From a virus: a stretch of 64,000 nt of DNA. The position numbers were made by a program, and so were the translations under genes. Under the pieces are notes generated by a model, which saw only the letters and a list, made by a program, of their open reading frames with translations, was not told the DNA's origin and ran no database searches. The stretch spans positions 1 through 64,000 of the IMG/VR virus record IMGVR_UViG_3300044733_003647. The stretch is one strand, 5' to 3'. Positions 7,790 through 61,440 of the stretch are shown here, in pieces. Numbering within the stretch: the first letter of the stretch is position 1; every line of letters starts with the position of its first letter.

Positions 7790-8437
7790 TTAAGCAGCCA
7801 CTGCTATCCGAATAACCTTTGCCATTTTCCGTCCATGGGCCGGATATCCAACCACTGCCACATCCTTGGAGTAGCAGGCACGGCAGCCATTACACTTGCC
7901 ACCATGCTCATATGCACGGCACAGCGTGACACCAGCAGGCACATTGGATGCATCCGGCAGGATGGTGCTGCCATGGACACCATCCGTATACGTACCATCC
8001 ACAGCATCACTGGATGGACGGACCATGACATTAGGCAGTGCTTGCATGGCAGCAAGGATGGCAGCGAATTTAGTAAACTTATGCATCCTAGTGGGCAGCC
8101 AGTGCTTTACATGGGGAGTAGCCACCATGACAGCGTACATTTTCTCCGCAAGCTCAAGGCTGTACATGTCCCCAGAATCGAACCACCGGAAGAAGCGCTG
8201 TTTGGAGAGCGCTTTCACCATGGTGTCCACCCAGTCAGCTTCCTGCCAAGCCAGCTTATTGTCGAAGCGGACGGCTTTGACGCCAGGGAAATTGTACATT
8301 CCGGTGGTAGCGTAGCAACCAGAGCAAGCAGCGACCAGGTCGCCGTTGGTGGCTTTGCTGCCGGGGCAAGTCTCAATAGCTTGCAGCGACCAGGACAGGA
8401 TGTTGTCCAGCTTGGAGGTTTTGGAGAGCTTATTCAT
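7790..8437 (-). CDS. GP88-family Cys-rich (Fe-S/radical-SAM-like) protein
   Basis: TCPGS..CSGCYA, FRWFDSGD, HWLPTR and C-terminal CNGCRACY. Confidence 0.8.
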   Translation of the reverse strand: MNKLSKTSKLDNILSWSLQAIETCPGSKATNGDLVAACSGCYATTGMYNFPGVKAVRFDNKLAWQEADWVDTMVKALSKQRFFRWFDSGDMYSLELAEKMYAVMVATPHVKHWLPTRMHKFTKFAAILAAMQALPNVMVRPSSDAVDGTYTDGVHGSTILPDASNVPAGVTLCRAYEHGGKCNGCRACYSKDVAVVGYPAHGRKMAKVIRIAVAA

Positions 8438-8467
8438 TTTCTTGCCTTTTCTTGAATCGATGGATGG

Positions 8468-8495
8468 ATTATGACAGGACCAGAGGAAATGGCAA
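8468..8495 (-). promoter_or_regulatory. Leftward promoter P1
   Basis: TTGCCA-N16-CATAAT with TG extension. Confidence 0.8.
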
Positions 8496-8567
8496 CTGTA
8501 AACTTTAGTACTCCATCCGCCTGGTCAACCTCTTGCCAAGGACAATGGACTATGATAGGCTGCTCGG

Positions 8568-8705
8568 TTATGCTAGGACTGTACCGATTTGCTTGGCAAT
8601 GCTGACAACACCATTCCAGAGGATGTTAGCGGTGGCCATGGTTTGCACAGGAAACGCAGCACCAAGAACCATGAAACCAAAAGCAAGCAGCAACCGAATG
8701 ATCAT
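8568..8705 (-). CDS. Small membrane/secreted peptide (45 aa)
   Basis: Manual translation MIIRLLLAFGFMVLGAAFPVQTMATANILWNGVVSIAKQIGTVLA; ATGA-coupled to the upstream ORF. Confidence 0.6.
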   Translation of the reverse strand: MIIRLLLAFGFMVLGAAFPVQTMATANILWNGVVSIAKQIGTVLA

Positions 8706-8803
8706 ACAGCTCTCCAAAAGAAAACGTCCATACCAACCACGAACAATGCAAGCGCACCAACCACGGACAGGATCAGCAGCTCATGGCGATCAAAAAAGGA
8801 CAT
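8702..8803 (-). CDS. Small single-TM peptide (33 aa)
   Basis: Manual translation MSFFDRHELLILSVVGALALFVVGMDVFFWRAV; TAATG-coupled. Confidence 0.6.
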   Translation of the reverse strand: MSFFDRHELLILSVVGALALFVVGMDVFFWRAV

Positions 8804-9066
8804 TAAGCCCCCTTGGTGATAGTAACAGCACCAGCCTTGCGGTTGGCTTTGGCAGCCTTGGCACCAACCTTGCCGACCTGCTTGGACAGCAGCTTCTGGA
8901 GGCGAGCCTCTGCCTTAGCGATGGCAGCTGCCTGCTTGGCTTCTGCAGCCTCCAGCTTCTCTGCTTTCACCCGAGCAGCCAGCTGCTGGATCATAGCTTT
9001 AATTTCCTTAACATCAGCGCGAGCCTTACGGAGAGCTGCAACGGAGGGGGAGAGAGTCTTGGACAT
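8803..9066 (-). CDS. Ala/Lys-rich basic coiled protein
   Basis: SD GAAAGGAAG, directly downstream of promoter P2. Confidence 0.75.
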   Translation of the reverse strand: MSKTLSPSVAALRKARADVKEIKAMIQQLAARVKAEKLEAAEAKQAAAIAKAEARLQKLLSKQVGKVGAKAAKANRKAGAVTITKGA

Positions 9067-9096
9067 ATTGTCTTCCTTTCAAATTACGATGGTTGA

Positions 9097-9124
9097 ATTA
9101 TGACAGAATTGGAGGGATTGGCAA
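9097..9124 (-). promoter_or_regulatory. Leftward promoter P2
   Basis: TTGCCA-N16-CATAAT; CCGGTCAA box upstream. Confidence 0.8.
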
Positions 9125-9148
9125 GCATCCATTGGATACTTGACCGGA

Positions 9149-9352
9149 TTAGTATGATTGACCACCAGGAAAACGCTCCCGGCTCCGACCAGGTTCGTGA
9201 TAAGATTCGAAAACCTTCTCCTTAAGCTTGGTGCCACGAACCGTGCGGATGGCTTGAATCTCCGCCTCCAAGCGCCGGTGTTCGGTATGGTAAGCTTCCA
9301 AAGCCTTGGCTTGGAGGGCTTTTAATTCTCGGATAGATTGTGTTTTCATCAT
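9149..9352 (-). CDS. Hypothetical protein, probably leaderless
   Basis: MMKTQSIRELKALQ; ATG lies 7 nt after the P3 -10 box. Confidence 0.6.
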   Translation of the reverse strand: MMKTQSIRELKALQAKALEAYHTEHRRLEAEIQAIRTVRGTKLKEKVFESYHEPGRSRERFPGGQSY

Positions 9353-9359
9353 GGAATGG

Positions 9360-9387
9360 ATTATGACAGAACCACAGGAAGTGGCAA
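9360..9387 (-). promoter_or_regulatory. Leftward promoter P3
   Basis: TTGCCA-N16-CATAAT. Confidence 0.8.
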
Positions 9388-9396
9388 TATACAACC

Positions 9397-9609
9397 TTAG
9401 TTCTCCAGCGGAGCGAACGGCTTTGCCATTTCATTATTGCAGGCCGCCGGGAACACTTTGCGGATGTCCTTGTGAACTGTCGCCAAAGACACTTCGAAGA
9501 TCCAAGCCACAGTCTCCGCTCCTTCGGCACTGGGCCACAAAGCACCGCTATGATACTGGTGAGCTTTGGCTAAAGCCAGTTCCCAGATCGCTTCTTTGTA
9601 AGTTTTCAT
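9397..9609 (-). CDS. Hypothetical protein, possible HTH
   Basis: SD AAGGAG; AETVAWIFEVSLATVHKDIR resembles an HTH. Confidence 0.7.
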   Translation of the reverse strand: MKTYKEAIWELALAKAHQYHSGALWPSAEGAETVAWIFEVSLATVHKDIRKVFPAACNNEMAKPFAPLEN

Positions 9610-9636
9610 GGTCAGCTCCTTGTTGTCTATGTGTGT

Positions 9637-9664
9637 ATTATACCGGAACCGTGGAGAATGGCAA
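9637..9664 (-). promoter_or_regulatory. Leftward promoter P4
   Basis: TTGCCA-N16-TATAAT; CCGGTCAA box upstream. Confidence 0.8.
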
Positions 9665-9695
9665 CCATCCAAGGATAGTTGACCGGACTGGAGGG

Positions 9696-9914
9696 TTATT
9701 CCTCCTTAGCCAGCTCCTTGCCCATATCAAAGTCCAGGCATTCCTGAAGCGTAGGCTCGGGGAAGGCCAAGCACTCCTGCTCGACCATTTCACAATAGAC
9801 CTCAGCCACCCAGGACACGGGGACCTCATACTTGGAGGCAATCTCCGCAAAGGTCAAAGGACCATCCAGTATGTCCTTTTGGATATCAAAAACAAGGTTG
9901 GACATAGCGCTCAT
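9696..9914 (-). CDS. Hypothetical protein, HTH-like
   Basis: LTFAEIASKYEVPVSWV; SD GAAAGGAAG. Confidence 0.7.
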   Translation of the reverse strand: MSAMSNLVFDIQKDILDGPLTFAEIASKYEVPVSWVAEVYCEMVEQECLAFPEPTLQECLDFDMGKELAKEE

Positions 9915-9941
9915 ATCTTCCTTTCAAATTACAATGGTTGG

Positions 9942-9969
9942 ATTATGGCGGATCCACAGGAAATGGCAA
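9942..9969 (-). promoter_or_regulatory. Leftward promoter P5
   Basis: TTGCCA-N16-CATAAT. Confidence 0.8.
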
Positions 9970-10002
9970 CCATAAACTTTAGTATTCCATCACCTTGGTC
10001 GG

Positions 10003-30542: not shown

Positions 30543-30567
30543 CAACTAAATAAATTACCACTATAAT
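30539..30567 (+). promoter_or_regulatory. Perfect sigma70 promoter for tmRNA, with a late-like TAAATA in the spacer
   Basis: TTGACA-N17-TATAAT. Confidence 0.85.
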
Positions 30568-30573
30568 AGTGGT

Positions 30574-30919
30574 TATGGTTGTATGAAGCAACTGGAAACG
30601 TGTTCTGGACGGCGGTTCGATTCCGCCCAGGTCCACCAAAAGAATTCTGAGTGTACCGTAATCGGTCTTGAACCGTGCGGTGAAGGTGTTAAGCAGTAAC
30701 AAGTGAACCTGTAGCACTAGAGCGACACCTGCTCCTTAGACAGAATTCTTCTGATGGGCCTGACCAGGTTTCGACAGGGCAAAGAGTATAGAAGTGGACA
30801 ACTCACCAGAGAAGGTGTAAAAACTAAATTAAGTAAACGCAAACGATGAAAAGTTCGCATTGGCAGCCTAAACGCTGACTAGGGTTTCGATAGGTTTCCT
30901 CGTAACAGAATAACCTATC
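30574..30919 (+). ncRNA. ssrA: Circularly permuted (two-piece) tmRNA
   Basis: T-arm GGCGG-TTCGATT-CCGCC and CAGGTCC-A-CCA (ends 30638) precede GGGCCTG (30756). The acceptor stem has the G3-U70 pair. Tag ORF 30839-30871 reads ANDEKFALAA*. Outer ends are approximate. Confidence 0.93.
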
Positions 30920-30939
30920 ACAACATTGAAAGGAAAACA

Positions 30940-31497
30940 ATGAAAAGTAAACCAATACTTTTATCCATTGCTTTTTCTGCGACAATTCTGTTTTTGGGTA
31001 TGATTAACGTTGATCTTCATCGTATACTGCCATTCAAAACATCTTATGAGCTTTTGTCTAAAGATGTTCAGAAACAAGTTACATGTCTCGCGGAAAATAT
31101 CTACTTTGAGGCCGCACATGAGCCTCTAGACGGCAAAAAAGCCGTTGCGTTTGTGACGATTAATCGTTTGCAAACTGGAAATTATGCACACACTATCTGT
31201 GATGTTGTCTTTCAAAAGACTAATGGAACTTGCCAGTTCTCTTGGTACTGTGACGAATCCGTCCTTAGAAAACGCTTGACAATACGTGATACAAAACTGT
31301 ATAATGAGATTCGTGAGTTGGCAATTCACATGGTTGTCAATTACGAACGTATGAAAGATGTTACGGATGGTGCAACATACTATCATGCGGATTATGTGAA
31401 TCCTGGGTGGAAATTAAAGAAGGTCGACCAGATTGGTCGTCACATCTTTTATCGAAGCAACAAGGATAATATTGATAGAAATAAGGAGATTATATGA
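30940..31497 (+). CDS. Cell wall hydrolase, SleB/Hydrolase_2 family
   Basis: CLAENIYFEA, AVA.VT.NR, CQFSW, GATYYHADYVNP.W and IGRHIFY; N-terminal TM segment. Confidence 0.9.
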   Translation: MKSKPILLSIAFSATILFLGMINVDLHRILPFKTSYELLSKDVQKQVTCLAENIYFEAAHEPLDGKKAVAFVTINRLQTGNYAHTICDVVFQKTNGTCQFSWYCDESVLRKRLTIRDTKLYNEIRELAIHMVVNYERMKDVTDGATYYHADYVNPGWKLKKVDQIGRHIFYRSNKDNIDRNKEII

Positions 31498-52886: not shown

Positions 52887-54254
52887 ATGACAAATAAAAT
52901 CGTAATCACACCTGAAGCCAAGCTCTTACAAGTGCAACAGAGTTATTATGCACCTGTTGCCGTAATCACATCAAAAAACAATTTGCCTGTCGAGACAGAC
53001 TACTGTTTTCTTTCTAGAGTTGACCCGTGGCCACAGGCAAACACTCCACCCACTCCTGGATTGGACCAGAAGAGTCGAAAAGAAGTCTTCAAAAACATCT
53101 TTGCAGTAAAAAAAGTAAACACATCCGATATTTCTCCAGTAATTCAGAGAATTGATTGGAGGTCAGGAACAATTTACGATTATTATCGCGACGATATTAA
53201 TATCTTAGAACAAGATGAAAATGGAAATTTAGTTTATAATTTCTATGTCAAGAATAGATACGACCAAGTTTTTAAGTGTTTGTGGAATGGAAACGGTGCT
53301 GCTGCAACAGACGAACCAATGTTCACACCAGGCACATACGGAACAAACAACATTTATGTCGGTTCAGATGGTTACAAATGGAAATTTATCTATTCGATTG
53401 ACACCGGTTTAAAAGTTAAATTCATGGACACCAAGTGGATGCCTGTTGGTGTCAGCACAACTTCATTGAATGCATTAACAGCTCCAGAAGGCATTGGTGG
53501 AGTTGAAGTTATAAATGTTTATAGTGTTGGTTCTGGTTACGATGCACCCAATGCAACGATTACTGTAACTGTAACTGGTGATGGCAACGGTGCAGTTGCA
53601 ACAGCTAACACATCAAACGGATCTATTATAGATATTATCGTTACAAATCCTGGTGCAAATTATACTTTTGCGAACGTAACTATCACATCAGCATTAGGTA
53701 ATGGCGTTGTTGCATATGCAAATACGTCACCTGTCGGTGGCCACGGATTCGATCCAATTTCTGAACTTGGTTGTTCACATGTTATGTATTCGGTTGAGTT
53801 TAATGGTTCTGAAGGTGGTGAAATACCAACCGATATCGACTTTCACCAATTGGGTTTGATAGTAAATCCAACATCTAAGCAATCAAGTCCGAATCCAGCA
53901 AATGGTACAATTTATAGAACGACAACCGATTTAATTGTTGCTCCGGGTTTTGGTACATTTGAAAGAGATGAGGTTGTTTATCAAGGTTCTTCTTTGGCTG
54001 CAGCTACATTTACTGCAAAAGTTTTAAGCTTTGATGTTGCAACTAATGTACTTAGACTCATAAATACAACAGGCACACCAGCACTTAATGGTTCCGTTTA
54101 CGGAAACACATCATCAACAGCAAGAACTGTACTAACCGTCAGTTATCCAAACTTTGTTTTATTCTCTGGTTACTTGGCATATATAGAAAATAGAGAAAGC
54201 ATTCAAAGAAGTTTTGACGGCATAGAACAATATAGATTCGTATTAGGTTACTAA
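52887..54254 (+). CDS. 8: Baseplate wedge gp8
   Basis: R.DW.SG..YD.Y, VFKCL.N, DGYKWKF.Y and GHG.DP..ELG. Confidence 0.88.
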   Translation: MTNKIVITPEAKLLQVQQSYYAPVAVITSKNNLPVETDYCFLSRVDPWPQANTPPTPGLDQKSRKEVFKNIFAVKKVNTSDISPVIQRIDWRSGTIYDYYRDDINILEQDENGNLVYNFYVKNRYDQVFKCLWNGNGAAATDEPMFTPGTYGTNNIYVGSDGYKWKFIYSIDTGLKVKFMDTKWMPVGVSTTSLNALTAPEGIGGVEVINVYSVGSGYDAPNATITVTVTGDGNGAVATANTSNGSIIDIIVTNPGANYTFANVTITSALGNGVVAYANTSPVGGHGFDPISELGCSHVMYSVEFNGSEGGEIPTDIDFHQLGLIVNPTSKQSSPNPANGTIYRTTTDLIVAPGFGTFERDEVVYQGSSLAAATFTAKVLSFDVATNVLRLINTTGTPALNGSVYGNTSSTARTVLTVSYPNFVLFSGYLAYIENRESIQRSFDGIEQYRFVLGY

Positions 54255-54263
54255 AGGAAAAAA

Positions 54264-57200
54264 ATGGCTCTGAATTTTAACGTTGATCCATATTACGATG
54301 ATTTCGACCCATCAAAGAATTTTCATCGTATTCTTTTTAAACCAGGCGTTGCAGTACAGGCAAGAGAATTAACACAATCTCAAACAATTCTGCAAAGCCA
54401 GATTTCTAAATTTGCAGATAACATTTTTTCACAGAACACACCAGTTACTGGTGGTAAAGTTACTGTAAATCAAAATTGTTATTATTTAAAACTAAACGCA
54501 CAATACAATAGTGCTGACATTGTTGCTGGTGATTTTACCAATAAAATTATTCAGGATTCAACCGGTCAAGTTATTGCGAAAGTAATTAAGACAGCAGAAG
54601 CAACAGGTACAGATGTAACTGCAGGTGATCCACCAACACTAATTGTTACATATCTTTCTGGTAGTCAGTTTAGTGATGGCATGGATATTTTCCCTGCTGA
54701 CGGATCAAACTTTGCAGCAACAATTATTGGTACTCTTGGTGGTTCAACTGGTGTCGGGCTTTCTTCTGTTGCATCCATTTCTGATGGTGTTTTCTACATT
54801 GTTAATGGTTATTCACAGTCAAGTACACAGAATGAAGATGGTTCTTATACCAAGTATTCAATCGGTAATTTTGTATCCGTTCAACCACAAACAACAATAC
54901 TGGACAAGTACAGTTCAACACCGTCCTATCGTGTAGGTTTGTCGATCCAAGAAACAATCGTAGACTATATCGATGATCCATCACTATTGGATCCGGCAGT
55001 TGGTGCATCGAACTATCAGGCACCAGGTGCAGATAGATATCAAATTAACTTGTCACTCACAACATTACCATTAGAATTGGGTAATGATGATGCATTCGTT
55101 GAGTTACTAAGAATTGAAAATGGTAATGTTCAGAAGCAAGTAAACAGCACAGTTTATTCTGTCATTGATGAATACTTTGCAAAGAGAACTTCTGAGACAA
55201 ACGGTGATTATATCGTCAGTAATTTCAAGATAACACCTTCTGCAAACACAATTGACGCAAATACATATATCTTAGGCGTTGGACCGGGCATTGCATATGT
55301 TCAAGGTTTTAGAATAGAAAATCAATCGACATTGCAAATTACATCTGGTCGTGCAAGAACAACAGATTCTATCAATAACAATAGTAACTTTATTGATTAT
55401 GGTAACTACATCTATATTGATAATTTGAAAGGTCAAGGCGGCAGTTTCTTTGATATCACAACCGGCAGCCCAGTAGATTTTCATATTGTTGGCACCACGG
55501 GTGTTGATAGATCAAACACAACAACTTACAATTCAACTTTAGCTGGCAGTGGTTATATTCGTGCATTAAGTTATGTTCAGGCCTCAAACGGTTCAAATAC
55601 ACAAACATATACTTACAAGGCACACATCTTTGATCTTGCAAGTAAAACACTTTCAAGCAACGTTTCAGTTGCCAACACCAATTTCACAACACTGTATGTT
55701 GGTTCAGCTGGTCAATTGTCAAACGTAGCAAATGCATACGTTGGTTGTTCTATCACAATTAATTCTGGCACAAATGCGGGTGATGCAAGAACAATTACCT
55801 ATTACGATCCGAACAACAAAACAATTCAAACCGATGCACCTTTCACCATTTTACCTGACGGAACATCTCAGTTCTCAATTCGTTTTGGTGTAAAAGATTT
55901 CGAAACAATTGTGCAACCTGTTGTAGGTACACCTTACACATTTGAAGGTAGTGCAAGTGTTAGCAATTTGGGTAAAGTAAACAATGTCGCATCTGGTTAC
56001 ACACAGTTATTCAATCCAGGAAATCCACAACTGATCTTCCCATTGGGTAACAAGTTTGTTTCTGCTGTAACAGATTCTTCTTACACAACACTACAAGAAT
56101 TTAGAGCACAATCTTTCGCAAGTTACCTAACTGGTTCAAGAAGATATCTGCAATTGGATCCATCATCTACAGGAACATTTGATTTAATTAGAACAGGTAC
56201 AACAGAATCTGCTGATGCGATTAGACAAAATTGGATAGTTGTTGTAACAAACAGATTAACCAATACCACCATAAACAACGGTGATATTATCGATTTCACA
56301 ACAGGCAGCAGAAGTATTGCTGTTGACTCGGACAAAAATGGTGTTTATCTAACATGCCCGGATCTTGCTCCATTCGTTGCAACAATCTATACAAAACTAT
56401 CTGTTACAGATGGCAATGACACAAACTACGTACTGAAAACAAAGACACTTGTTCAAGCAAATACAACAGTTGCAAGTTCTGCTGGACCAGATGGTGTTGT
56501 CAATAACACATACATCGATCTGACAAATGGTCAAATCTGGATTCCAACTGCTGGCGTATTGAGTTATGGCAACAACCAGAAATTGTATGTTTCTGATGTT
56601 AAGAGAATTGTTAAGATTATTGATACGAATGGTGTAACACCAAATACAACACTGTTGACAACAGGTACCGATATTACATCTTACTATACATTTAATGATG
56701 GTCAAACAGACAGTTACTATGGGCACTCATACATCACATTGAAACCTGGTCGTCAGAAACCAGTTTCATTGTGGATTCTATTTGATCACTTCAACCATTC
56801 TGGTGGTGATGGTTACTTTAGCGCACAGTCTTATACAAACGTTGGTTTCACCGACAGACCAAAATACTATGCTGGCAATGGTACACTTTATGATCTGAAA
56901 GATTGTTTAGACTTTAGGCCTGCTGTGTTGAATGGACAAGGTAACTTTGTATTCAAATACAAAATCACGCCAACGACCACAAACAACTCCGGTTTCTTTA
57001 TTCCTTCAGACTTGAGTGCGTTTACATCCGATTATGCATACTATCTGGGAAGAAAAGATATACTTATAATTGGTAAAGACAAAGGCATAAGATTAATTGA
57101 AGGTGTTCCAGATATTAATCCTATTTTCCCCAGTCAGCCAGAAGGTTCTATGTTGTTGGCCAAAATTTCTTTGGATCCATACACCGAATATGTGACTGGT

Positions 57201-59351
57201 CAAACAACAACTGGGCAAATTGCAAACATCAGTGTTCAACCAGTACTACACAAACGTTGGGCATTCAAAGACATTACAGATTTGCAAACACGTGTCAATA
57301 ATCTGGAATATTATACATCATTAAATCTGTTGGAACAAAAGGCCGCAAATCTACAGATACCTGACGGAAATGGTTTAAATCGTTTCAAGAATGGTATTTT
57401 AGTTGATGACTTTTCAACCTTTAGTGTTGGTGACACATTCAATCCAGACTTTAGTGCAGCAATCAATACAAGATTGCAATATTTGACACCTGCATTATTG
57501 ATTAAAAATTATTCTCTACAGAACCAACAGTTGTTAAGTGTTGGTGGTTTCAAAGGCTTGTCAAATACAGCCACTACCGGACTATCATTCAAACCAACAA
57601 ATTCTGATAATTCTCCAATTTATACTTTAAAGTATACAGAAGAAATAATTGCAAGTCAACCTCTGGCAAGTAGAGTTATTTCGGTTAATCCTTTTGCTGT
57701 AGCAGATTCGGTTGGTACACTGACTCTGACTCCACCAATGGACAACTGGATTGACAATACAGCACAACCTGATTTGTTGTTCATTGATCCTAATCTGAGA
57801 ATGTATCAGCCTTCAAGCACTCTCAATTTACTTGAAGGTGATCCAACTTTGGCTGTTGGTGACTGGAAAACAATTCCAGGAACAGAAACAACAACCACAC
57901 AAACAATGACAGAAACTGTTGATGATGGTTTTTTTAATTTTTCTTCTTCTTACAACGCAAACGTCACAACCGTAGATAAACAAAACATCTACACCTACGG
58001 TTATTGGTCACAAACATATTCTGTTGAAGGTAATTATATTACCAACGTTTCTCTGTTGCCATATATCAGAGCACAACAGATTGCTTTCAGAGCAACAGAC
58101 ATGTTGTTTAATACAACAGTGAACGTATTCTTTGATGAGAAACGTGTCTCGCGTATGATTAGAAAGCCAAACATCATCGAATTGAGTGGTGTAACCGGTG
58201 AATTCAAAGTTGGTGACACAATTGGTTATGTCGTGAGTTCAATTTTCACAAAGACCGGTATTATTTCCGATATTTACAAGTATGCAAACGGCAACGTTCG
58301 TCTGTATGTTATTGGTGATATTGGCACCGCATCTTATGGTACAACTGTTAGAAACGGATTCTTCAATACGTCCGGTGTGTATCAGAACAGTACAGCAAGT
58401 GGTACATTTGTTTCGTTAACTCACTATTCTGGTGCATTCACAGCCAATACATCTTCAGCAAACACCGTAACACTTGCATCAACAGCTTCTTCAAGCAACA
58501 CAGCATATGTTGGGCAAGAATTCTGGATTGTTAATGGATCAGAGTCAAGTGTTCTGTCGATTCCTATCGGTCAGAAGGCAACAGTTTCAAGTTACAATGG
58601 TGTTACAAAAGTCGCCACATTGAATAGAAATATTACCGCAAAAACTGGCGAAACATATTCAATTGGACCTTTGGTTACCAACGAAGTTGGTTCCGTATCT
58701 GGTGTTTTCAACTGCCCAGGCGGTTACTTCCATGTTGGTGAAAGAACGATGAAGATTGATAACAGAATTGTTACAGAAGGTATATCAGACTTCTTCTACA
58801 ACAAAGGTACCGAAACAACATCGGCTCAAGCAACTTTCTTTGCACAAGGTTTATCTACAACATCTCAGCAAATTAATTATTCTGCAAGCGTGTCTGGTCA
58901 AGCAAACACAATCACAACCATCAAAACTGTTAATGACTTTGTTACAAATACACAGAGAATACAAACTGGTGGTGGCGGCGGAGGTTGCTGTGTTATTTCT
59001 ACAGCAATGGCTGACATGGGTATTTGGTCGAAAGATCAGAAGTTTGATCTGATTGAATGGTGTGAGAAGTATCTGCACAACAAAACACTTGGTGAATGCT
59101 TCCGCCGTGGTTATCAAGTGATTGGTTCTAAGGTTGCTGTGCCGTTGTTGAGGGATCAAGGCATTATTGGTAAGATTATAAGACCTTATGGTAATTGGGC
59201 ATTCACAAACGGAACAAACATGGTTCGTGGTAAGAAATTCTCATGGTTGTCAGTACCAAACTCTGTAGTTTGGATTGCAGGTTTCATGGCAGTTGGTGCA
59301 GTTGTCACAACAAAGTATGCAAACAAGTGCTGGAAAAAACTGTACGAATAA
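54264..59351 (+). CDS. Large virion protein (VrlC/DUF4815-like) N-terminal part, with C-terminal Gly-Cys-led domain and TM segment
   Basis: N..PYYDDF, F.PG..VQARELTQ.Q and RFKNG..VD.F; ends GGGGGGCCVISTA...hydrophobic helix. Confidence 0.85.
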   Translation: MALNFNVDPYYDDFDPSKNFHRILFKPGVAVQARELTQSQTILQSQISKFADNIFSQNTPVTGGKVTVNQNCYYLKLNAQYNSADIVAGDFTNKIIQDSTGQVIAKVIKTAEATGTDVTAGDPPTLIVTYLSGSQFSDGMDIFPADGSNFAATIIGTLGGSTGVGLSSVASISDGVFYIVNGYSQSSTQNEDGSYTKYSIGNFVSVQPQTTILDKYSSTPSYRVGLSIQETIVDYIDDPSLLDPAVGASNYQAPGADRYQINLSLTTLPLELGNDDAFVELLRIENGNVQKQVNSTVYSVIDEYFAKRTSETNGDYIVSNFKITPSANTIDANTYILGVGPGIAYVQGFRIENQSTLQITSGRARTTDSINNNSNFIDYGNYIYIDNLKGQGGSFFDITTGSPVDFHIVGTTGVDRSNTTTYNSTLAGSGYIRALSYVQASNGSNTQTYTYKAHIFDLASKTLSSNVSVANTNFTTLYVGSAGQLSNVANAYVGCSITINSGTNAGDARTITYYDPNNKTIQTDAPFTILPDGTSQFSIRFGVKDFETIVQPVVGTPYTFEGSASVSNLGKVNNVASGYTQLFNPGNPQLIFPLGNKFVSAVTDSSYTTLQEFRAQSFASYLTGSRRYLQLDPSSTGTFDLIRTGTTESADAIRQNWIVVVTNRLTNTTINNGDIIDFTTGSRSIAVDSDKNGVYLTCPDLAPFVATIYTKLSVTDGNDTNYVLKTKTLVQANTTVASSAGPDGVVNNTYIDLTNGQIWIPTAGVLSYGNNQKLYVSDVKRIVKIIDTNGVTPNTTLLTTGTDITSYYTFNDGQTDSYYGHSYITLKPGRQKPVSLWILFDHFNHSGGDGYFSAQSYTNVGFTDRPKYYAGNGTLYDLKDCLDFRPAVLNGQGNFVFKYKITPTTTNNSGFFIPSDLSAFTSDYAYYLGRKDILIIGKDKGIRLIEGVPDINPIFPSQPEGSMLLAKISLDPYTEYVTGQTTTGQIANISVQPVLHKRWAFKDITDLQTRVNNLEYYTSLNLLEQKAANLQIPDGNGLNRFKNGILVDDFSTFSVGDTFNPDFSAAINTRLQYLTPALLIKNYSLQNQQLLSVGGFKGLSNTATTGLSFKPTNSDNSPIYTLKYTEEIIASQPLASRVISVNPFAVADSVGTLTLTPPMDNWIDNTAQPDLLFIDPNLRMYQPSSTLNLLEGDPTLAVGDWKTIPGTETTTTQTMTETVDDGFFNFSSSYNANVTTVDKQNIYTYGYWSQTYSVEGNYITNVSLLPYIRAQQIAFRATDMLFNTTVNVFFDEKRVSRMIRKPNIIELSGVTGEFKVGDTIGYVVSSIFTKTGIISDIYKYANGNVRLYVIGDIGTASYGTTVRNGFFNTSGVYQNSTASGTFVSLTHYSGAFTANTSSANTVTLASTASSSNTAYVGQEFWIVNGSESSVLSIPIGQKATVSSYNGVTKVATLNRNITAKTGETYSIGPLVTNEVGSVSGVFNCPGGYFHVGERTMKIDNRIVTEGISDFFYNKGTETTSAQATFFAQGLSTTSQQINYSASVSGQANTITTIKTVNDFVTNTQRIQTGGGGGGCCVISTAMADMGIWSKDQKFDLIEWCEKYLHNKTLGECFRRGYQVIGSKVAVPLLRDQGIIGKIIRPYGNWAFTNGTNMVRGKKFSWLSVPNSVVWIAGFMAVGAVVTTKYANKCWKKLYE

Positions 59352-59354
59352 ATT

Positions 59355-59804
59355 ATGGGACTAAGTGTAGCTGAATATTTCGCACAAAAGGAGGCATGTG
59401 CCTCCTGTGTGGATCATGGCACCGAAGAACATTGTGTTACCACATTGTTAAGTAGAAAAGAAAATTGTTTTGTTTATAGTATTATACATAATCAAATTGG
59501 TGAGTATAAACAAGAAGAGATTGAGTTACTTAGAAAAATGAGGGAAGATTCTTCAGAAGAAGAGAACGTAATTTATTATGTTAGAGGTGAAAGAATCATT
59601 GAAAAGATGCATCTGATGGAAAAACCTTTCTATGAGCAGGTATCCTTTTTCAGTTATATTAATTTTAAGTATATCAAAAGTGTCGTCGAAGCATTAGTTC
59701 AAAAACGAACAGATGACGCAAAACGTCTAATAAATACTATGTTAGAAGTTCTTGAAAAAGAAAATAACATACCGAAGGAATTAAATGAGTTCAAGTACTA
59801 TTGA
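59355..59804 (+). CDS. CFI-box-like helical protein
   Basis: CFV...E..LLR..R....YY.....I....YI..VV pattern. Confidence 0.55.
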   Translation: MGLSVAEYFAQKEACASCVDHGTEEHCVTTLLSRKENCFVYSIIHNQIGEYKQEEIELLRKMREDSSEEENVIYYVRGERIIEKMHLMEKPFYEQVSFFSYINFKYIKSVVEALVQKRTDDAKRLINTMLEVLEKENNIPKELNEFKYY

Positions 59805-61440
59805 TCCAGTAGCGCAAACATTTATCATAGATGGTCAGAATTTTCCATCTGGAGCTTTTTTAAGTTCCGTTAATTTGTTTTTCAGAACAAAACCATCAAC
59901 GAGTGTGCCTGTTCGTGTTTGCATATTACCAACTCTTAATGGTTATCCAACTGGACAACCATTACAGTATTCTATTGTTAGTTTGCCTTCTACTTCTGTT
60001 AATGTATCTGAAACACCACACTATCTGAATTCAAATACATATACAAATTTTGCCTTTTCGTCACCGGTTTATATTAACCCGGATCAATTATACGCAATAG
60101 TTGTACAGTCATCTTCAGATGATTATACTTTATGGTGTTCACAACAAGGTGATACTGCACTATTATCAACATCAAAAGCTCTGCCAACAGACGTTAATCC
60201 ACCATCACCAACAAAGATTGTTACGACACCATATGTTGGTGATTTATTTGAGTCGCAGAATGGATTGACTTGGACAGCCGATTTATTAAAAGATTTGATG
60301 TTTACAATTAATAGATGTAAGTTTAGTACCAATACATCACCATCAATTTCATTTGTTGTTCCGGCAGGATTACCGGAAAGAAGAAGAATCGAATCGACTA
60401 CAGCTCTTGCTGCAGCCAATTCCATATATGATGCACTCAACCTATCCACAACAGACTTAACACCACCAGGAACATCTCTTACATATCAGTACACAACGAC
60501 ACTAGAGTCTGGTATATCCGATGGTCCATACAGTGTGGTTCCAGGAAAATATGGAACACCAAAATCAGAAGATGTTAGTCTGAATGACAACAAAGGATCA
60601 AGAGTATTAAATTATACCGCAAATGATTCATTCAAATTACAAGTTACTTTATCAACGGATAATGATGCGGTAAGTCCAGCAATTGCAGAAGATGGATTGA
60701 ACCTATGGACAATTCGTTATAGAATTAATAACATGGGTATTTCGAATGATGATATTTTCTTAATTACTGGTGGAATTGGCTACTTAGCTAATGCAAACGG
60801 AACAATTTCTTATCCTCAAATTAGCGTTTCTGCACCAGATTTGGATGTTGGCGAACAAGCTTATGTTTCCGCCAACATTCAGTCTGGAAATATTGTCAGT
60901 GTGTATGTTACATCAGAAGGTTCTGGATATCTGACAACACCAACAATTACTATTTCAAACACATCAAACGTGTCTGCGAACGTAATTATTGCTGGTGAAA
61001 CTTCACCTTCCGGTGGAAATAGCAGAGCCAGATACATTACACAGATTGTCACATTAGCTGAAGGCAGCGATTCGGGTGACTTAAGGGTTTACACATCAGC
61101 CTATAGACCAACAAATTCCGACATTCATGTGTATTATAAAATTGTGGCTAGAGATGATACACAGAAAATTGAAGAAGGTGATTGGAAACTAATGACAATT
61201 ACAAGTGGTGCTGGAAGATATTCGACAAGTTTTTCCGATATCATTGAATATGAATTTTCACCAGGAACCTTAAATGTTGCGGATGAATTTGTAAGTTATA
61301 CCAGTAAAGCCAATGGGCTTTCTTACACATCATTCTATCAGTTTATGATCAAGGTTGTTATGTCATCTTCTGATTCAACATTTGCACCATTCTTGGATGA
61401 TATAAGAGCGATTGCTCTACCACCAGGAACAGGACTATAA
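59785..61440 (+). CDS. VrlC/DUF4815-like virion protein C-terminal part
   Basis: Begins IDPVAQTF..G.FL.SV.LFF..K; also LF.SQNG.TW..DL.F, ARYIT..V.L and D.RAIAL. Confidence 0.85.
   Translation: MSSSTIDPVAQTFIIDGQNFPSGAFLSSVNLFFRTKPSTSVPVRVCILPTLNGYPTGQPLQYSIVSLPSTSVNVSETPHYLNSNTYTNFAFSSPVYINPDQLYAIVVQSSSDDYTLWCSQQGDTALLSTSKALPTDVNPPSPTKIVTTPYVGDLFESQNGLTWTADLLKDLMFTINRCKFSTNTSPSISFVVPAGLPERRRIESTTALAAANSIYDALNLSTTDLTPPGTSLTYQYTTTLESGISDGPYSVVPGKYGTPKSEDVSLNDNKGSRVLNYTANDSFKLQVTLSTDNDAVSPAIAEDGLNLWTIRYRINNMGISNDDIFLITGGIGYLANANGTISYPQISVSAPDLDVGEQAYVSANIQSGNIVSVYVTSEGSGYLTTPTITISNTSNVSANVIIAGETSPSGGNSRARYITQIVTLAEGSDSGDLRVYTSAYRPTNSDIHVYYKIVARDDTQKIEEGDWKLMTITSGAGRYSTSFSDIIEYEFSPGTLNVADEFVSYTSKANGLSYTSFYQFMIKVVMSSSDSTFAPFLDDIRAIALPPGTGL

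What the first reader, a model, noticed from the sequence alone, without database searches (positions are those of the whole stretch)
58968..59830. Virion VrlC-like gene interrupted by a Gly-Cys-led CFI-box-like two-part cassette (candidate protein-processing system)
Seen: the 1695-aa protein switches at TQRIQT-GGGGGG-CCVISTA into a ~125-aa helical domain (L..W....L....G..F..GY) ending in a TM helix and basic tail. A 149-aa ORF follows with CFV...E..LLR..R...YY...YI..VV. The structural protein then resumes in a new ORF at DPVAQTF, a motif I recognise as internal in single-chain homologs. Both inserted parts resemble CFI-box-CTERM domains (GGCFIATA..LR.FRD..G..F...YY), whose mechanism I do not know, and a Gly-run plus Cys recalls Hint auto-processing junctions. 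Inference: a non-Hint cleavage, membrane-tethering or ligation module that matures the virion protein.
Basis: partly seen in the sequence, partly recalled or inferred. Interest (0 to 1): 0.75.

Follow-up and report, generated by a model that had tools for sequence, protein, structure and literature searches.

The report
Cap cassette splitting phage baseplate gene
In this T4-like phage the gene for a large baseplate protein is cut in two by a conserved, undescribed two-gene insert that starts with a cysteine-led helical 'cap'. Other phages carry self-cleaving Hint domains at the same spot, so this is probably an unstudied way of processing virus-particle proteins.

Summary
VrlC (DUF4815/phrog_358) is encoded as two ORFs, 54264-59351 and 59785-61440. 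They break 6 residues before the DPVAQTF motif, which is internal in single-chain homologues and in relatives about 49% identical.

Between the two parts lie a Gly6 linker, a 121-aa Cys-led all-helical domain fused to the N fragment, and a 149-aa ORF. Both insert genes are under strong purifying selection (dN/dS 0.01-0.09) and diverge in step with VrlC.

The same pair also interrupts unrelated Gly-rich fibre genes. The cap domain belongs to a large phage-only family (208 representatives) that always sits at the extreme C-terminus of virion-type proteins.

Both parts resemble the prokaryotic CFI-box-CTERM domain weakly but above shuffle controls. They fail its curated HMM threshold.

The key new evidence is that other phages carry Hint domains at the same VrlC junction, either alone or in front of a related cap. 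About 59% of 74 surveyed VrlC genes are split.

Best reading (confidence 0.4): the junction is a post-translational processing site and the cap is a removable assembly-phase module. Cleavage, membrane insertion and ligation are all untested.

First readers of this scan noted the same kind of module on other phage DNA.

The parts
52887..54254 (+). gp8-like baseplate wedge gene directly upstream (context)
   Evidence: phrog_438 baseplate wedge subunit, E 1e-77. Mosig and ACG-2014d show the same gp8-then-VrlC order.
54264..58967 (+). VrlC N fragment, host part (P0001 aa 1-1568)
   Evidence: Pfam DUF4815, E 1e-62. phrog_358 profile positions 5-1416, E 6e-233.
58968..58985 (+). Gly6 linker between the host part and the cap domain
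   Evidence: Read directly. Relatives have G/S/P-rich linkers of variable length at this place.
58986..59351 (+). Cys-led all-helical cap ('tail') domain, 121 aa plus stop. The second Cys of CC is the invariant one.
   Evidence: Family alignment A1 has 60% mean column identity. The profile search found 208 representatives, always at the C-terminus. AF2 pLDDT 90.6, six helices. No Pfam, PHROG, NCBIfam, PADLOC or PDB match. dN/dS 0.04-0.09.
59244..59309 (+). Hydrophobic helix of the cap (..SVVWIAGFMAVGAVVTT..), followed by a basic end
   Evidence: AF2 helix at model residues 93-112. Best 19-aa Kyte-Doolittle mean is 1.66, borderline for a membrane helix. The tier-2 relatives score only about 1.0.
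59355..59804 (+). 149-aa partner ORF (P0002). It has four invariant Cys and a free-standing CFI-box-like stretch at aa 37-82.
   Evidence: Alignment A2 invariants are M1 G2 C15 C18 C27 C38 Y74 Y75 R77, numbered as the alignment tool reported them. More than 180 relatives, all from phage-type metagenome contigs, none with a Pfam hit. It directly follows tier-1 caps on VrlC and on Gly-rich hosts. dN/dS 0.014-0.07.
59775..59779 (+). Shine-Dalgarno-like AAGGA, 5 nt before the ATG of the C fragment and inside the end of P0002
   Evidence: Read directly. No TATAAATA late promoter lies inside the cassette, so the three ORFs are probably co-transcribed and translationally coupled. That last step is an inference.
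59785..61440 (+). VrlC C fragment (P0003, 551 aa)
   Evidence: phrog_358 profile positions 1420-1580 onward, E 6e-84. 38% identical to internal parts of Mosig and ACG-2014d VrlC.
59803..59823 (+). DPVAQTF, the conserved VrlC motif just after the break
   Evidence: Invariant D, P, A, Q and F in alignment A6. The motif is internal in 30 of 74 surveyed VrlC genes.

Best explanation
The window encodes the baseplate protein VrlC in two pieces. The N fragment carries a removable C-terminal 'cap' behind a flexible Gly linker. The cap is a compact six-helix domain that begins at an invariant Cys and ends in a hydrophobic helix plus a basic tail. A dedicated small Cys4 partner protein (P0002) is encoded right behind it and is translationally coupled.

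The cap belongs to a large, undescribed, phage-only family of C-terminal domains found on baseplate, fibre and ejection-type virion proteins. That family is a distant relative of the prokaryotic CFI-box-CTERM domain.

Other phages place Hint autoprocessing domains at this same VrlC junction, either alone or between VrlC and a related cap. I therefore read the junction as a post-translational processing site. In this reading the cap works during synthesis and assembly, for example by folding, oligomerising, tethering or holding the fragment, with P0002 as its partner. It is then detached from the structural part at or near the Gly-linker/Cys boundary, and the two VrlC fragments assemble non-covalently in the baseplate.

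Shown here: the split, the family, its conservation, its transfer between host genes, and Hint occupancy of the same site.
Inferred: removal of the cap, the role of the Cys, the role of P0002, and any contact with membrane.
For: 1. The split lies exactly inside one family profile, and the site is continuous in relatives.

2. The cap is always at the extreme C-terminus and always follows a G/S/P-rich linker. It starts at an invariant Cys on many unrelated hosts: DUF4815, Gly_rich_2, PA14 and others.

3. Both cassette genes are under strong purifying selection and diverge together with VrlC over 49-95% host identity. Neither is a decaying insert.

4. Hint domains occur at the same junction.
- L029/L030: Pro-rich linker, two Hint domains (Hom_end_hint 50.3 bits against a cut-off of 32.1), then G6 and a tier-2 cap. 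The next ORF starts ..DRIDPLAQTF.
- L240: Hint-Hint-GGG followed by another helical module.
- L310: the N fragment ends in a Hint-like domain alone (motif match only, no HMM run).
- L236: weak Hint hits.
A Hint at the end of a polypeptide has no known activity other than acting on the bond in front of it. This rests on established knowledge of Hedgehog and BIL domains.

5. Some split VrlC N fragments end in the linker only (L252, L255). The cap is therefore not a necessary part of the finished baseplate.

6. The cap has collinear profile similarity to CFI-box-CTERM, starting at the Cys and above shuffle controls. CFI-box-CTERM is itself a Gly-run/Cys-led C-terminal domain ending in a membrane helix and a basic tail.
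Against: - No experiment and no proteome shows cleavage.
- The predicted fold is all-helical, with no resemblance to Hint or to any known self-cleaving domain.
- The residue before the Cys is not fixed. In prokaryotic CFI boxes it is G in only about half of the cases.
- A subset of caps at a second VrlC split site lacks the otherwise invariant C32 and H37, for example L251.
- The 'ICT' modules that replace the cap elsewhere carry their Cys three residues into the helix. L241's module has no Cys at all. That fits a side-chain role for the Cys, such as metal binding, a disulfide or lipid attachment, as well as it fits backbone chemistry.
- The CFI-like Cys of P0002 is internal (C38).
- In the window phage there is no Hint domain, so removal would need the cap itself or a protease. 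I have no evidence for either.
Confidence: 0.4

Rival explanations
1. The cap stays on the virion and is a membrane-active or anchoring domain used at infection. Its hydrophobic helix would be buried in a helical bundle in the particle and would insert into the host envelope when the baseplate fires. P0002 would be a producer-cell chaperone that keeps the cap soluble.
For: - The tier-2 relatives cap roughly 500-aa proteins that sit in the internal-virion/ejection-protein position of podophage-like contigs, just before a lytic-transglycosylase protein.
- The hydrophobic helix is modelled with pLDDT 95-97 inside a compact domain with pTM 0.83.
- The hosts are all tail-tip or baseplate-type proteins.
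Against: - Hint domains placed between host and cap would detach the cap in the producer cell, before assembly.
- Linker-only and Hint-only ends show that VrlC works without a cap.
- The tier-2 last helix is only weakly hydrophobic, with a Kyte-Doolittle mean of about 1.0.
- Both flanks of the tier-1 helix are basic, which argues against simple tail-anchor insertion. This was read from the sequence.
Confidence: 0.2
2. The cap is a cargo released from a structural carrier, following polymorphic-toxin logic. The layout would be a structural N part, a linker, an optional Hint releasing domain, a C-terminal effector and a small cognate partner or 'immunity' gene (P0002). The freed, roughly 120-aa hydrophobic protein would act in the infected cell late in infection, for example on the membrane or on lysis timing.
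For: - Variable C-terminal modules follow Pro/Gly linkers on one carrier: tier-1 cap, tier-2 cap, 'ICT' module, or none.
- Hint domains, including weak PT-HINT similarity in P0194, lie just upstream.
- A small, tightly linked downstream gene travels with the tier-1 cap.
- The cap family tree shows a few transfers between host genes.
Against: - The cap is far more conserved than polymorphic toxin tips: 60% mean column identity and dN/dS below 0.1.
- No toxin or immunity family matched in Pfam or PADLOC.
- Tier-2 caps and second-site caps lack any P0002-like gene.
- A function in lysis or host takeover is pure conjecture.
Confidence: 0.12
3. The cassette is mainly a selfish, gene-splitting mobile element. 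It would be analogous to 'fractured genes', where a split intein plus a free-standing homing endonuclease break a gene. Here it would persist because the split host protein still assembles. P0002 would be the mobility protein, and the cap would only limit damage.
For: - The tail+P0002 pair interrupts two unrelated genes in mid-domain. One is VrlC. The other is Gly_rich_2 domains, in L008/L009, L010 and L024, where the domain resumes after P0002.
- The VrlC site lies immediately before the most conserved motif, as intein and homing sites typically do (general knowledge, PMC2814812 abstract).
- The P0002 region has a different composition, GC 0.29-0.34 against 0.37-0.42.
- P0002 has an invariant Cys4 cluster that could bind zinc and DNA. 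That reading is an inference.
Against: - P0002 matches no nuclease, recombinase or any other family.
- The cassette and host diverge together with no sign of recent spread within the VrlC clade.
- The cap also sits at natural C-termini, with no resumed gene, e.g. L011.
- The cap is more conserved than its host, so it has a function of its own.
- The genome holds only one copy.
Confidence: 0.12
4. The Gly-run/Cys boundary forms a thioester by an N-to-S acyl shift. The acyl group is then passed to an amine or hydroxyl of another chain. This would re-join the two halves of the split protein, or cross-link VrlC-N to a neighbour, without a Hint fold.
For: - The unhindered Gly run lies directly before an invariant Cys.
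- Hint domains, which make such thioesters, stand in the same place elsewhere.
- All 29 distinct N-termini of split VrlC C fragments have T, S, A, P or G as their second residue, so the Met is probably removed. Of these, 18 of 29 expose Ser or Thr, against 10 of 42 long ORFs in the window.
- The cassette sits in mid-domain in Gly-rich hosts, where a Gly-rich scar would be tolerated.
Against: - There is no catalytic motif and no known fold.
- The N-terminal statistics are not phylogenetically independent, and A/S/T is common at position 2 anyway (50% background).
- Caps at natural C-termini have no acceptor fragment.
- Second-site caps lack P0002.
Confidence: 0.1

Closest known systems
CFI-box-CTERM domain (NCBIfam NF041770), on prokaryotic surface or secreted proteins; function unpublished as far as I could find
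   Same: - It is a C-terminal domain that starts at a Cys right after a Gly-rich linker (C-F/V-I/V-A/S-T-A).
- It has a helical region with L..[FW]...L and G..F..[YG]Y motifs, followed by a hydrophobic helix and a basic end, about 100-120 aa in all.
- Profile-profile similarity is collinear from the Cys and above shuffle controls, both for the cap and for P0002.
   Different: - The curated HMM threshold is not reached.
- The phage caps have their own invariant core, WCE..LH....GECFRRGYQV and NGT..V.GKKF.
- The hosts are cytoplasmically made virion proteins, not exported cell-surface proteins.
- A stand-alone partner gene (P0002) and gene splitting were seen here on the phage side. I did not examine the neighbourhoods of the prokaryotic family.
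Hint-superfamily autoprocessing domains (Hedgehog C-terminal domain, bacterial intein-like BIL domains, PT-HINT)
   Same: - Both are Cys-led modules placed directly after the C-terminus of a passenger protein, behind a Gly-containing junction.
- Hint domains occupy the same VrlC junction in other phages and can stand directly in front of a related cap.
   Different: - The cap has no Hint HMM match.
- It is all-alpha rather than the Hint beta fold.
- It has no TxxH or terminal HN motifs.
- No autoprocessing has been shown.
'Fractured genes': a split intein plus a free-standing homing endonuclease breaking a conserved gene (Dassa et al. 2009, PMC2677866, abstract read)
   Same: - A conserved gene is broken in two.
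- The N fragment is extended by a Cys-led domain.
- A small free-standing ORF lies in the gap.
- The C fragment resumes next to a conserved motif.
- The arrangement is found in environmental phage-type DNA.
   Different: - There is no intein N or C half. Only 6 residues precede DPVAQTF in the C fragment.
- The middle ORF has no endonuclease similarity.
- Classical trans-splicing is therefore excluded.
C-terminal intramolecular chaperone domains of phage tailspikes and fibres (Peptidase_S74), self-cleaved after trimer folding (my own knowledge; not tested against a structure here)
   Same: - It is a promiscuous, highly conserved, largely helical C-terminal add-on shared by otherwise unrelated tail proteins.
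- It is expected to be absent from the mature protein.
- It is often accompanied by a small downstream assembly gene.
   Different: - There is no S74 HMM match.
- The leading residue is Cys rather than a Ser-Lys dyad.
- The cap has a hydrophobic helix and a basic end.
- It sits in the middle of what is elsewhere one gene.
Polymorphic toxin C-terminal modules with PT-HINT and immunity genes (reviewed in PMC4436062; listed, not read further)
   Same: The order is carrier, linker, optional Hint, exchangeable C-terminal module, small linked gene.
   Different: - The module is conserved rather than polymorphic.
- There is no toxin or immunity family match.
- The carrier is a core virion protein whose own second half follows.

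Membership tests
CFI-box-CTERM (NF041770) | Score at or above the curated cut-off (40 bits) of the NCBIfam model | tested here: not met
   The window tail did not hit at E<=10. Only 2 of 17 family members hit, with best E 0.13. The model also found nothing in the phage's own genome.
CFI-box-CTERM (NF041770) | Extreme C-terminal position, starting at a Cys after a Gly-rich linker (C-F-I-A-T-A type motif) | tested here: met
   The window has G6-C-C-V-I-S-T-A, with 121 aa to the stop. All 100+ relatives are C-terminal. For comparison, I fetched 121 occurrences of the CFIATAAYG motif from prokaryote contigs. I took these as CFI boxes but did not score them with the NF041770 model.
CFI-box-CTERM (NF041770) | Hydrophobic (membrane-type) helix and a basic cluster at the end | tested here: inconclusive
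   Tier-1 best 19-aa Kyte-Doolittle mean is 1.66, against a CFI median of 1.96 and a tier-2 value of 1.0. AF2 packs the helix into a compact domain. No dedicated membrane-helix predictor was available.
CFI-box-CTERM (NF041770) | Homology detectable by profile-profile comparison | tested here: inconclusive
   hhalign, cap against 106 CFI boxes: probability 63%, E 7e-5, 77 collinear columns, score 29.3 against a shuffle maximum of 22.1. Tier 2: probability 59%, score 28.4 against 17.3. P0002: probability 35%, score 26.4 against 17.2.
Hint / intein / BIL | Match to Hint-family HMMs and the Hint beta fold | tested here: not met
   Pfam finds only DUF4815 in P0001 and nothing in P0002. AF2 gives six helices and no strands.
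Hint / intein / BIL | Nucleophilic Cys/Ser as first residue, directly after the passenger | tested here: met
   An invariant Cys opens the domain after the linker. This is position only. No chemistry was tested.
Fractured gene (split intein + free-standing HEG) | Intein C half at the start of the C fragment, with a nucleophile at +1 | tested here: not met
   P0003 has 6 residues (MSSSTI) before the conserved DPVAQTF. Relatives have 6-11.
Fractured gene (split intein + free-standing HEG) | Free-standing homing endonuclease between the fragments | tested here: inconclusive
   P0002 matches no nuclease family in Pfam, NCBIfam, PHROGs or PDB sequences. An unknown nuclease type cannot be excluded.
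Peptidase_S74 intramolecular chaperone | Match to the S74 HMM with its Ser-Lys cleavage dyad | tested here: not met
   No Pfam hit at E<=1. The VIA and Foldseek lists contain no S74 structure, which by itself is inconclusive.
VrlC / DUF4815 / phrog_358 (the host gene) | Match of both fragments to one family profile in collinear order | tested here: met
   phrog_358 positions 5-1416 match P0001 and positions 1420-1580 onward match P0003. DUF4815 E 1e-62.
Group I/II intron or other RNA element | Match to an Rfam covariance model in the insert | tested here: not met
   No Rfam match at E<=1 in 58500-60200. In addition, the ORF frames between the parts differ among relatives, while the proteins are conserved.

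The most novel reading that the evidence does not exclude
The Gly-run/Cys boundary of the cap makes a thioester, as Hint domains do at the same VrlC site in other phages. With help from P0002 it would transfer the VrlC-N carboxyl end onto the exposed Ser/Thr/Ala N-terminus of the C fragment, or onto a neighbouring virion protein. That would be a protein-ligation or cross-linking system built on an all-helical, non-Hint fold, one that lets phages carry core structural genes in pieces. It would also point to a chemistry for the prokaryotic CFI-box-CTERM domain, for which I found no published function.
Probability: 0.1. Interest if true: 0.95.

Novelty: new variant of a known kind. Interest (0 to 1): 0.68.

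Why it matters
VrlC is a core baseplate protein of cyano- and pelagimyophages and is thought to replace T4 gp7 (PMC7029224). Three findings make this more than a curiosity.

1. VrlC is split in more than half of the 74 sampled relatives.

2. The break is occupied interchangeably by Hint domains and by an undescribed Cys-led helical cap.

3. The same cap sits on hundreds of fibre, baseplate and ejection-type proteins.

Together these point to a widespread, unstudied step in the maturation of phage tail proteins.

The finding also gives a tractable phage model for the prokaryotic CFI-box-CTERM domain. That domain is curated, but I found no paper on it.

If the cap self-cleaves or ligates, it would be a new protein-processing chemistry and a possible protein-engineering tool. 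If it is only a chaperone or an anchor, it still explains a large set of 'hypothetical' phage genes and matters for annotating host-recognition modules in aquatic phages.

Tried and rejected
- **Read-through or frameshift joining the ORFs: rejected.** In the window, P0001 and P0002 share a frame (TAA, ATT, ATG). In L001, L002, L020, L021 and L023-L027 the frames differ while the proteins are conserved. The P0002/P0003 frame relation also varies.

- **Intron: rejected.** There is no Rfam hit, and both insert ORFs are protein-coding with dN/dS below 0.1.

- **Classical split intein: rejected.** There is no Hint fold or HMM match, and no intein C half.

- **The two insert parts as paralogues of each other: not supported.** hhalign probability is 0.1%.

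- **Known fold: none found.**
  - Foldseek against PDB gave no hit at E<=0.001 for either model.
  - VIA-align wide gave at best Z 4.6 for the cap (IpaH NEL domain 3ckd_A, rmsd 3.0, 71 aa) and Z 6.0 for the P0002 part. Both are below the tool's stated noise level for helical proteins.
  - PDB sequence profiles gave nothing credible.
  - The ESM Atlas gave only unnamed clusters at 0.76.

- **Cultured phages: no match.** tblastn found none for the cap, P0002 or the tier-2 cap in the 50,697 phage records, and none by DNA.

- **Defence-system libraries:** no hit.

- **'ICT' helical modules as relatives of the cap or of CFI boxes: not supported.** The alignment was shallow, with only 4 sequences.

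- **Complex prediction: not informative.** The single-chain fold of cap+P0002, made by reading TAA as Q, gave pTM 0.48. No contact or PAE output was available, so it says nothing about binding.

Full report
**What is in the window.**

The record is a 156.7-kb virus contig, estimated 94% complete. It has T4-type structural genes. A gp8-like baseplate wedge gene at 52887-54254 (phrog_438) is followed by three tightly packed ORFs on the + strand:
- P0001, 54264-59351, 1695 aa
- P0002, 59355-59804, 149 aa
- P0003, 59785-61440, 551 aa

P0001 residues 3-1564 match PHROG phrog_358 at profile positions 5-1416, and also match Pfam DUF4815. P0003 residues 5-188 continue the same profile at positions 1420-1580. 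The two ORFs are therefore the two halves of VrlC, a protein that is one chain in Pelagibacter phage Mosig (2045 aa) and in Synechococcus phage ACG-2014d (2472 aa). In both of those it also follows gp8.

The break lies 6 residues before the motif DPVAQTF. Between the halves lie:
- six Gly codons (58968-58985)
- a 121-aa domain beginning CCVISTA and ending in a hydrophobic helix and a basic tail
- the 149-aa ORF

P0002 starts 3 nt after the P0001 stop. P0003 has an AAGGA 5 nt before its ATG, inside the end of P0002. No T4-type late promoter lies inside the insert.

**It is a real, conserved cassette and not an artefact.**

The same N-fragment+cap / partner / C-fragment layout occurs in at least 15 viral contigs. 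Host-part identity to the window ranges from 95% down to 49%. Cap identity (100-61%), partner identity (99-50%) and C-fragment identity (96-51%) fall in step with it.

Nei-Gojobori dN/dS against two close relatives is 0.04-0.09 for the cap and 0.014-0.07 for the partner. That is as low as, or lower than, the flanking structural parts at 0.08-0.09.

The reading frames between the three ORFs differ among relatives, which excludes read-through or a programmed frameshift. No Rfam family matches.

An empty site exists. Contigs L237-L239, whose C part is 48-49% identical, read straight through ..NIVAQTPNI-DPLAQTF...

**The cap is a promiscuous phage domain.**

A length-unrestricted search found the cap at 53-99% identity on about 100 proteins:
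- VrlC N fragments
- glycine-rich fibre-like proteins (PF21722), some also with PA14
- a DUF4214 protein
- several proteins with no Pfam match

The cap is always the last 116-127 residues. It always follows a G/S/P-rich linker and always begins x-C-V-[VIM]-[SA]-[TS]. Only the second Cys of the window's CC is invariant.

A profile search of 1.84 billion representatives gave 208 hits, 53 of them at E<=1e-10. Below the close relatives lies a second tier, G-C-V-I-A-T-H-A..WC..LH..WWGE..RRGYR. hhalign links it to tier 1 with 99% probability. This tier caps roughly 500-aa low-complexity proteins in small marine phage contigs. Those proteins sit between virion structural genes and a lytic-transglycosylase internal-virion protein.

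A tree of tier-1 caps shows VrlC-borne caps in at least three clusters, with a large Gly-rich-borne clade nested among them. This means a few transfers between host genes on a mostly vertical background (FastTree, supports not examined).

No cultured phage record contains the cap, the partner or the tier-2 cap.

**The partner gene.**

P0002 has more than 180 relatives, all 134-166 aa, all from phage-type metagenome contigs, and none with a Pfam hit. The invariant positions reported for alignment A2 are M1, G2, four Cys (C15, C18, C27, C38), Y74, Y75 and R77. The Cys4 pattern suggests a zinc site. That is an inference.

P0002 directly follows tier-1 caps on VrlC and also on Gly-rich hosts (L008-L011, L024). 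In the Gly-rich cases it is only about 30% identical to the window's copy, while the caps stay 60-68% identical.

P0002 is absent in three situations:
- next to tier-2 caps
- next to caps at a second VrlC split site
- after a second cap in L008

**The cassette splits other genes too.**

In L008/L009, L010 and L024 the cap+partner pair sits in the middle of a glycine-rich domain. A short ORF after the partner carries the missing end of that domain, ending ..G.V.[IV].W. In L011 the cap closes an apparently complete protein and nothing resumes. So the module can be a plain C-terminal cap or a gene-splitting insert.

**Relation to CFI-box-CTERM.**

The curated model NF041770 (69 positions, cut-off 40 bits) does not recognise the window cap. 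Only 2 of 17 family members reach even E 0.13.

To test the resemblance properly, I fetched 121 occurrences of CFIATAAYG from prokaryotic contigs. These sit at C-termini, often behind Gly runs, about 100-110 aa from the stop, and are followed by a hydrophobic helix and a basic tail. I aligned 106 of them and compared profiles:

| Query | hhalign probability | Score | Column-shuffle maximum | Notes |
|---|---|---|---|---|
| Cap (tier 1) | 63% | 29.3 | 22.1 (150 shuffles) | E 7e-5; 77 collinear columns starting at the Cys |
| Tier 2 | 59% | 28.4 | 17.3 | |
| P0002 residues 37-82 | 35% | 26.4 | 17.2 | |

I read this as probable distant kinship, or at least a shared design. It is not family membership. 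The two insert parts do not match each other directly.

**Structure.**

With a 45-sequence alignment, AlphaFold2 gives the cap a mean pLDDT of 90.6 and a pTM of 0.83. The model has six helices, with the hydrophobic helix (model residues 93-112) among the most confident parts.

The fused cap+partner model (TAA read as Q) is all-helical with pTM 0.48. The Cys-rich N-terminus of P0002 has low confidence in that model.

Neither Foldseek nor VIA-align finds a credible PDB match. The best cap hits are NEL-type E3 ligase domains at Z 3.8-4.6, below the stated noise level for helical proteins. That is a lead only.

The hydrophobic helix is borderline for a membrane span in tier 1 (Kyte-Doolittle 1.66) and below threshold in tier 2 (about 1.0).

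**Hint domains at the same junction.**

This evidence does most to shape my interpretation.

- **P0159 (loci L029/L030).** This is a VrlC N fragment that ends in a Pro-rich linker and two tandem Hint domains. Each Hint runs C-F-x-G-x-T ... V-H-N-K. Pfam Hom_end_hint scores 50.3 bits against a cut-off of 32.1. After the Hints come G6 and a tier-2 cap. The next ORF begins MALDRIDPLAQTF.
- **L240.** Two Hints, then GGG, then a different helical module starting K-V-I-C-T. The next ORF holds ..GRIDPLAQTF.
- **L310/L311.** The N fragment ends in a single Hint-like domain and little else. This call rests on a motif match only; no HMM was run. The C fragment starts MAITILDPLAQSF.
- **L236.** A weak Hint match, a helical extension and a 186-aa ORF precede MAITGTSTVLLDPIAQSF.
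- **P0194.** It also shows ..V-V-H-N-K-G6-C-V-I-A-T-H-A.

I then surveyed the 80 viral loci closest to the window's C fragment. Of the 74 with a recognisable motif, 30 were continuous and 44 were split. The 44 split loci break down as follows:
- 10 carry cap+partner at the DP-proximal site.
- 7 carry a tier-1-like cap without a partner, at a second site 163-186 residues upstream.
- 8 carry the 'ICT' helical module.
- 1 was flagged as Hint-bearing by my motif screen (L280).
- 18 had no module that my crude screens recognised. By eye these include linker-only ends (L252, L255) and the Hint-like end of L310.

The sample is biased towards the window's relatives, and the classification used simple HMM and regular-expression screens.

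**Interpretation.**

A Hint domain at the C-terminal end of a polypeptide has, on established knowledge of Hedgehog and bacterial intein-like domains, one kind of activity. It attacks the peptide bond in front of its first Cys. Finding Hints alone, Hints followed by caps, caps alone and bare linkers at the same place in one protein family suggests two things. First, the C-terminal end of VrlC-N is a processing site. Second, the cap is an accessory that the finished baseplate does not need.

The cap's position (always last, behind a flexible linker, opened by an invariant Cys), its strong conservation and its spread over unrelated tail proteins resemble the behaviour of the self-cleaving intramolecular chaperone domains of tailspikes. 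A small coupled partner gene fits the usual fibre-plus-assembly-factor arrangement.

I therefore prefer the reading 'removable, assembly-phase C-terminal cap at a processing junction', with confidence about 0.4. Within it, I give self-cleavage at Gly|Cys perhaps half of that weight.

Several points count against a backbone role for the Cys:
- The residue preceding it is variable in prokaryotic CFI boxes.
- The Cys is shifted or absent in the replacing 'ICT' modules.
- C32 and H37 are lost in second-site caps.
- The CFI-like Cys of P0002 is internal.

**Rivals.**
- A retained membrane-active domain used at infection (0.2). The ejection-protein context of tier 2 supports it. Upstream Hints and cap-less VrlC fragments weaken it.
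- A released cargo with a cognate partner, on polymorphic-toxin logic (0.12).
- A mainly selfish gene-splitting element (0.12). Mid-domain insertion in two unrelated genes next to conserved motifs supports it. Co-divergence, a single copy per genome and the lack of any nuclease signature weaken it.
- Thioester-mediated ligation or cross-linking (0.1). This is the most novel reading. One small observation favours it: all 29 distinct N-termini of split C fragments have T/S/A/P/G at position 2, and 18 of 29 have Ser or Thr, against 10 of 42 long ORFs in the window. These counts are not phylogenetically independent.

**Novelty.**

I found no paper on CFI-box domains and none on Hint domains or split genes in VrlC. 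Papers that mention VrlC treat it as a single core baseplate protein.

The closest described arrangement is the 'fractured gene', a split intein plus a free-standing endonuclease (PMC2677866). Its defining intein halves are absent here.

First-stage notes of this scan describe the same kind of module on other phage genomes: a CFI-box-like cap at a VrlC split, Gly-linker-Cys helical domains with a stand-alone CFI-like gene, and 'ICT' domains. Those notes are unverified. They agree with what I found independently in metagenomic loci.

I class the finding as a new variant of a known kind: a CFI-box-like C-terminal domain and a gene in pieces. It has a real chance of being a new processing system.

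Noticed in passing
L241:547-6063: A glycine-rich fibre-like protein of about 1838 aa carries seven tandem, directly abutting Hint-like domains (..V-H-N-K|C-F-I-A-G-T..). These were counted by motif match and read by eye; no HMM was run. A C-terminal helical module without the leading Cys follows. I know of no described tandem Hint array on a phage fibre.
   Followed up: partly
L251, L257, L264, L269, L270, L285, L293 (about nt 2000-2500 of each locus): VrlC has a second split site 163-186 residues upstream of DPxAQTF. There the N fragment ends in a tier-1-like cap with no P0002-like gene. In L251 that cap lacks the otherwise invariant C32 and H37. Other contigs have an 'ICT' helical module (L267) or only a Pro/Gly linker (L252, L255) at this site.
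   Followed up: partly
L031-L110 (for example L054:3798-5300): The tier-2 cap family (G-C-V-I-A-T-H-A...) has 326 relatives in viral contigs. It ends roughly 500-aa low-complexity proteins that sit in the internal-virion/ejection-protein position of small marine phage contigs, followed by a Q/P/A/G-rich ORF and a lytic-transglycosylase protein.
   Followed up: partly
L236:1922-2482: The 186-aa ORF between a Hint-capped VrlC N fragment and the C fragment matches phrog_1128 (labelled enoyl-CoA hydratase/carnithine racemase-like, E 5e-16). By eye it contains a D-x-W-x-C-S-E-F stretch, which might point to a peptidase instead.
   Followed up: no
window 30546-30962 (+): ARAGORN calls a permuted tmRNA with tag peptide ANDEKFALAA inside this phage record. 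I did not check it against Rfam or against relatives.
   Followed up: no
window 8001-10000: This 2-kb block has GC 0.507, in a genome that is otherwise 0.33-0.42. I did not examine it.
   Followed up: no
window 59300-59900: The P0002 region has GC 0.29-0.34 and the cap+P0002 region has GC skew up to +0.33. The VrlC flanks have GC 0.37-0.42 and skew near zero or negative. The cause could be amino-acid composition or a separate origin.
   Followed up: no
model mc7705a681764 (window 58968-59348): Four of the nine best VIA-align hits for the cap are NEL-type bacterial E3 ubiquitin ligase domains (IpaH, SlrP, IpaH1880, SspH1). These are all-helical enzymes that use a Cys thioester. The scores are Z 3.8-4.6, below the noise level for helical proteins.
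   Followed up: no
L243-L322, starts of VrlC C fragments: All 29 distinct N-termini of split VrlC C fragments have T (11), S (7), A (7), P (3) or G (1) as second residue. The corresponding A/S/T share among 42 long ORFs of the window is 50%.
   Followed up: partly
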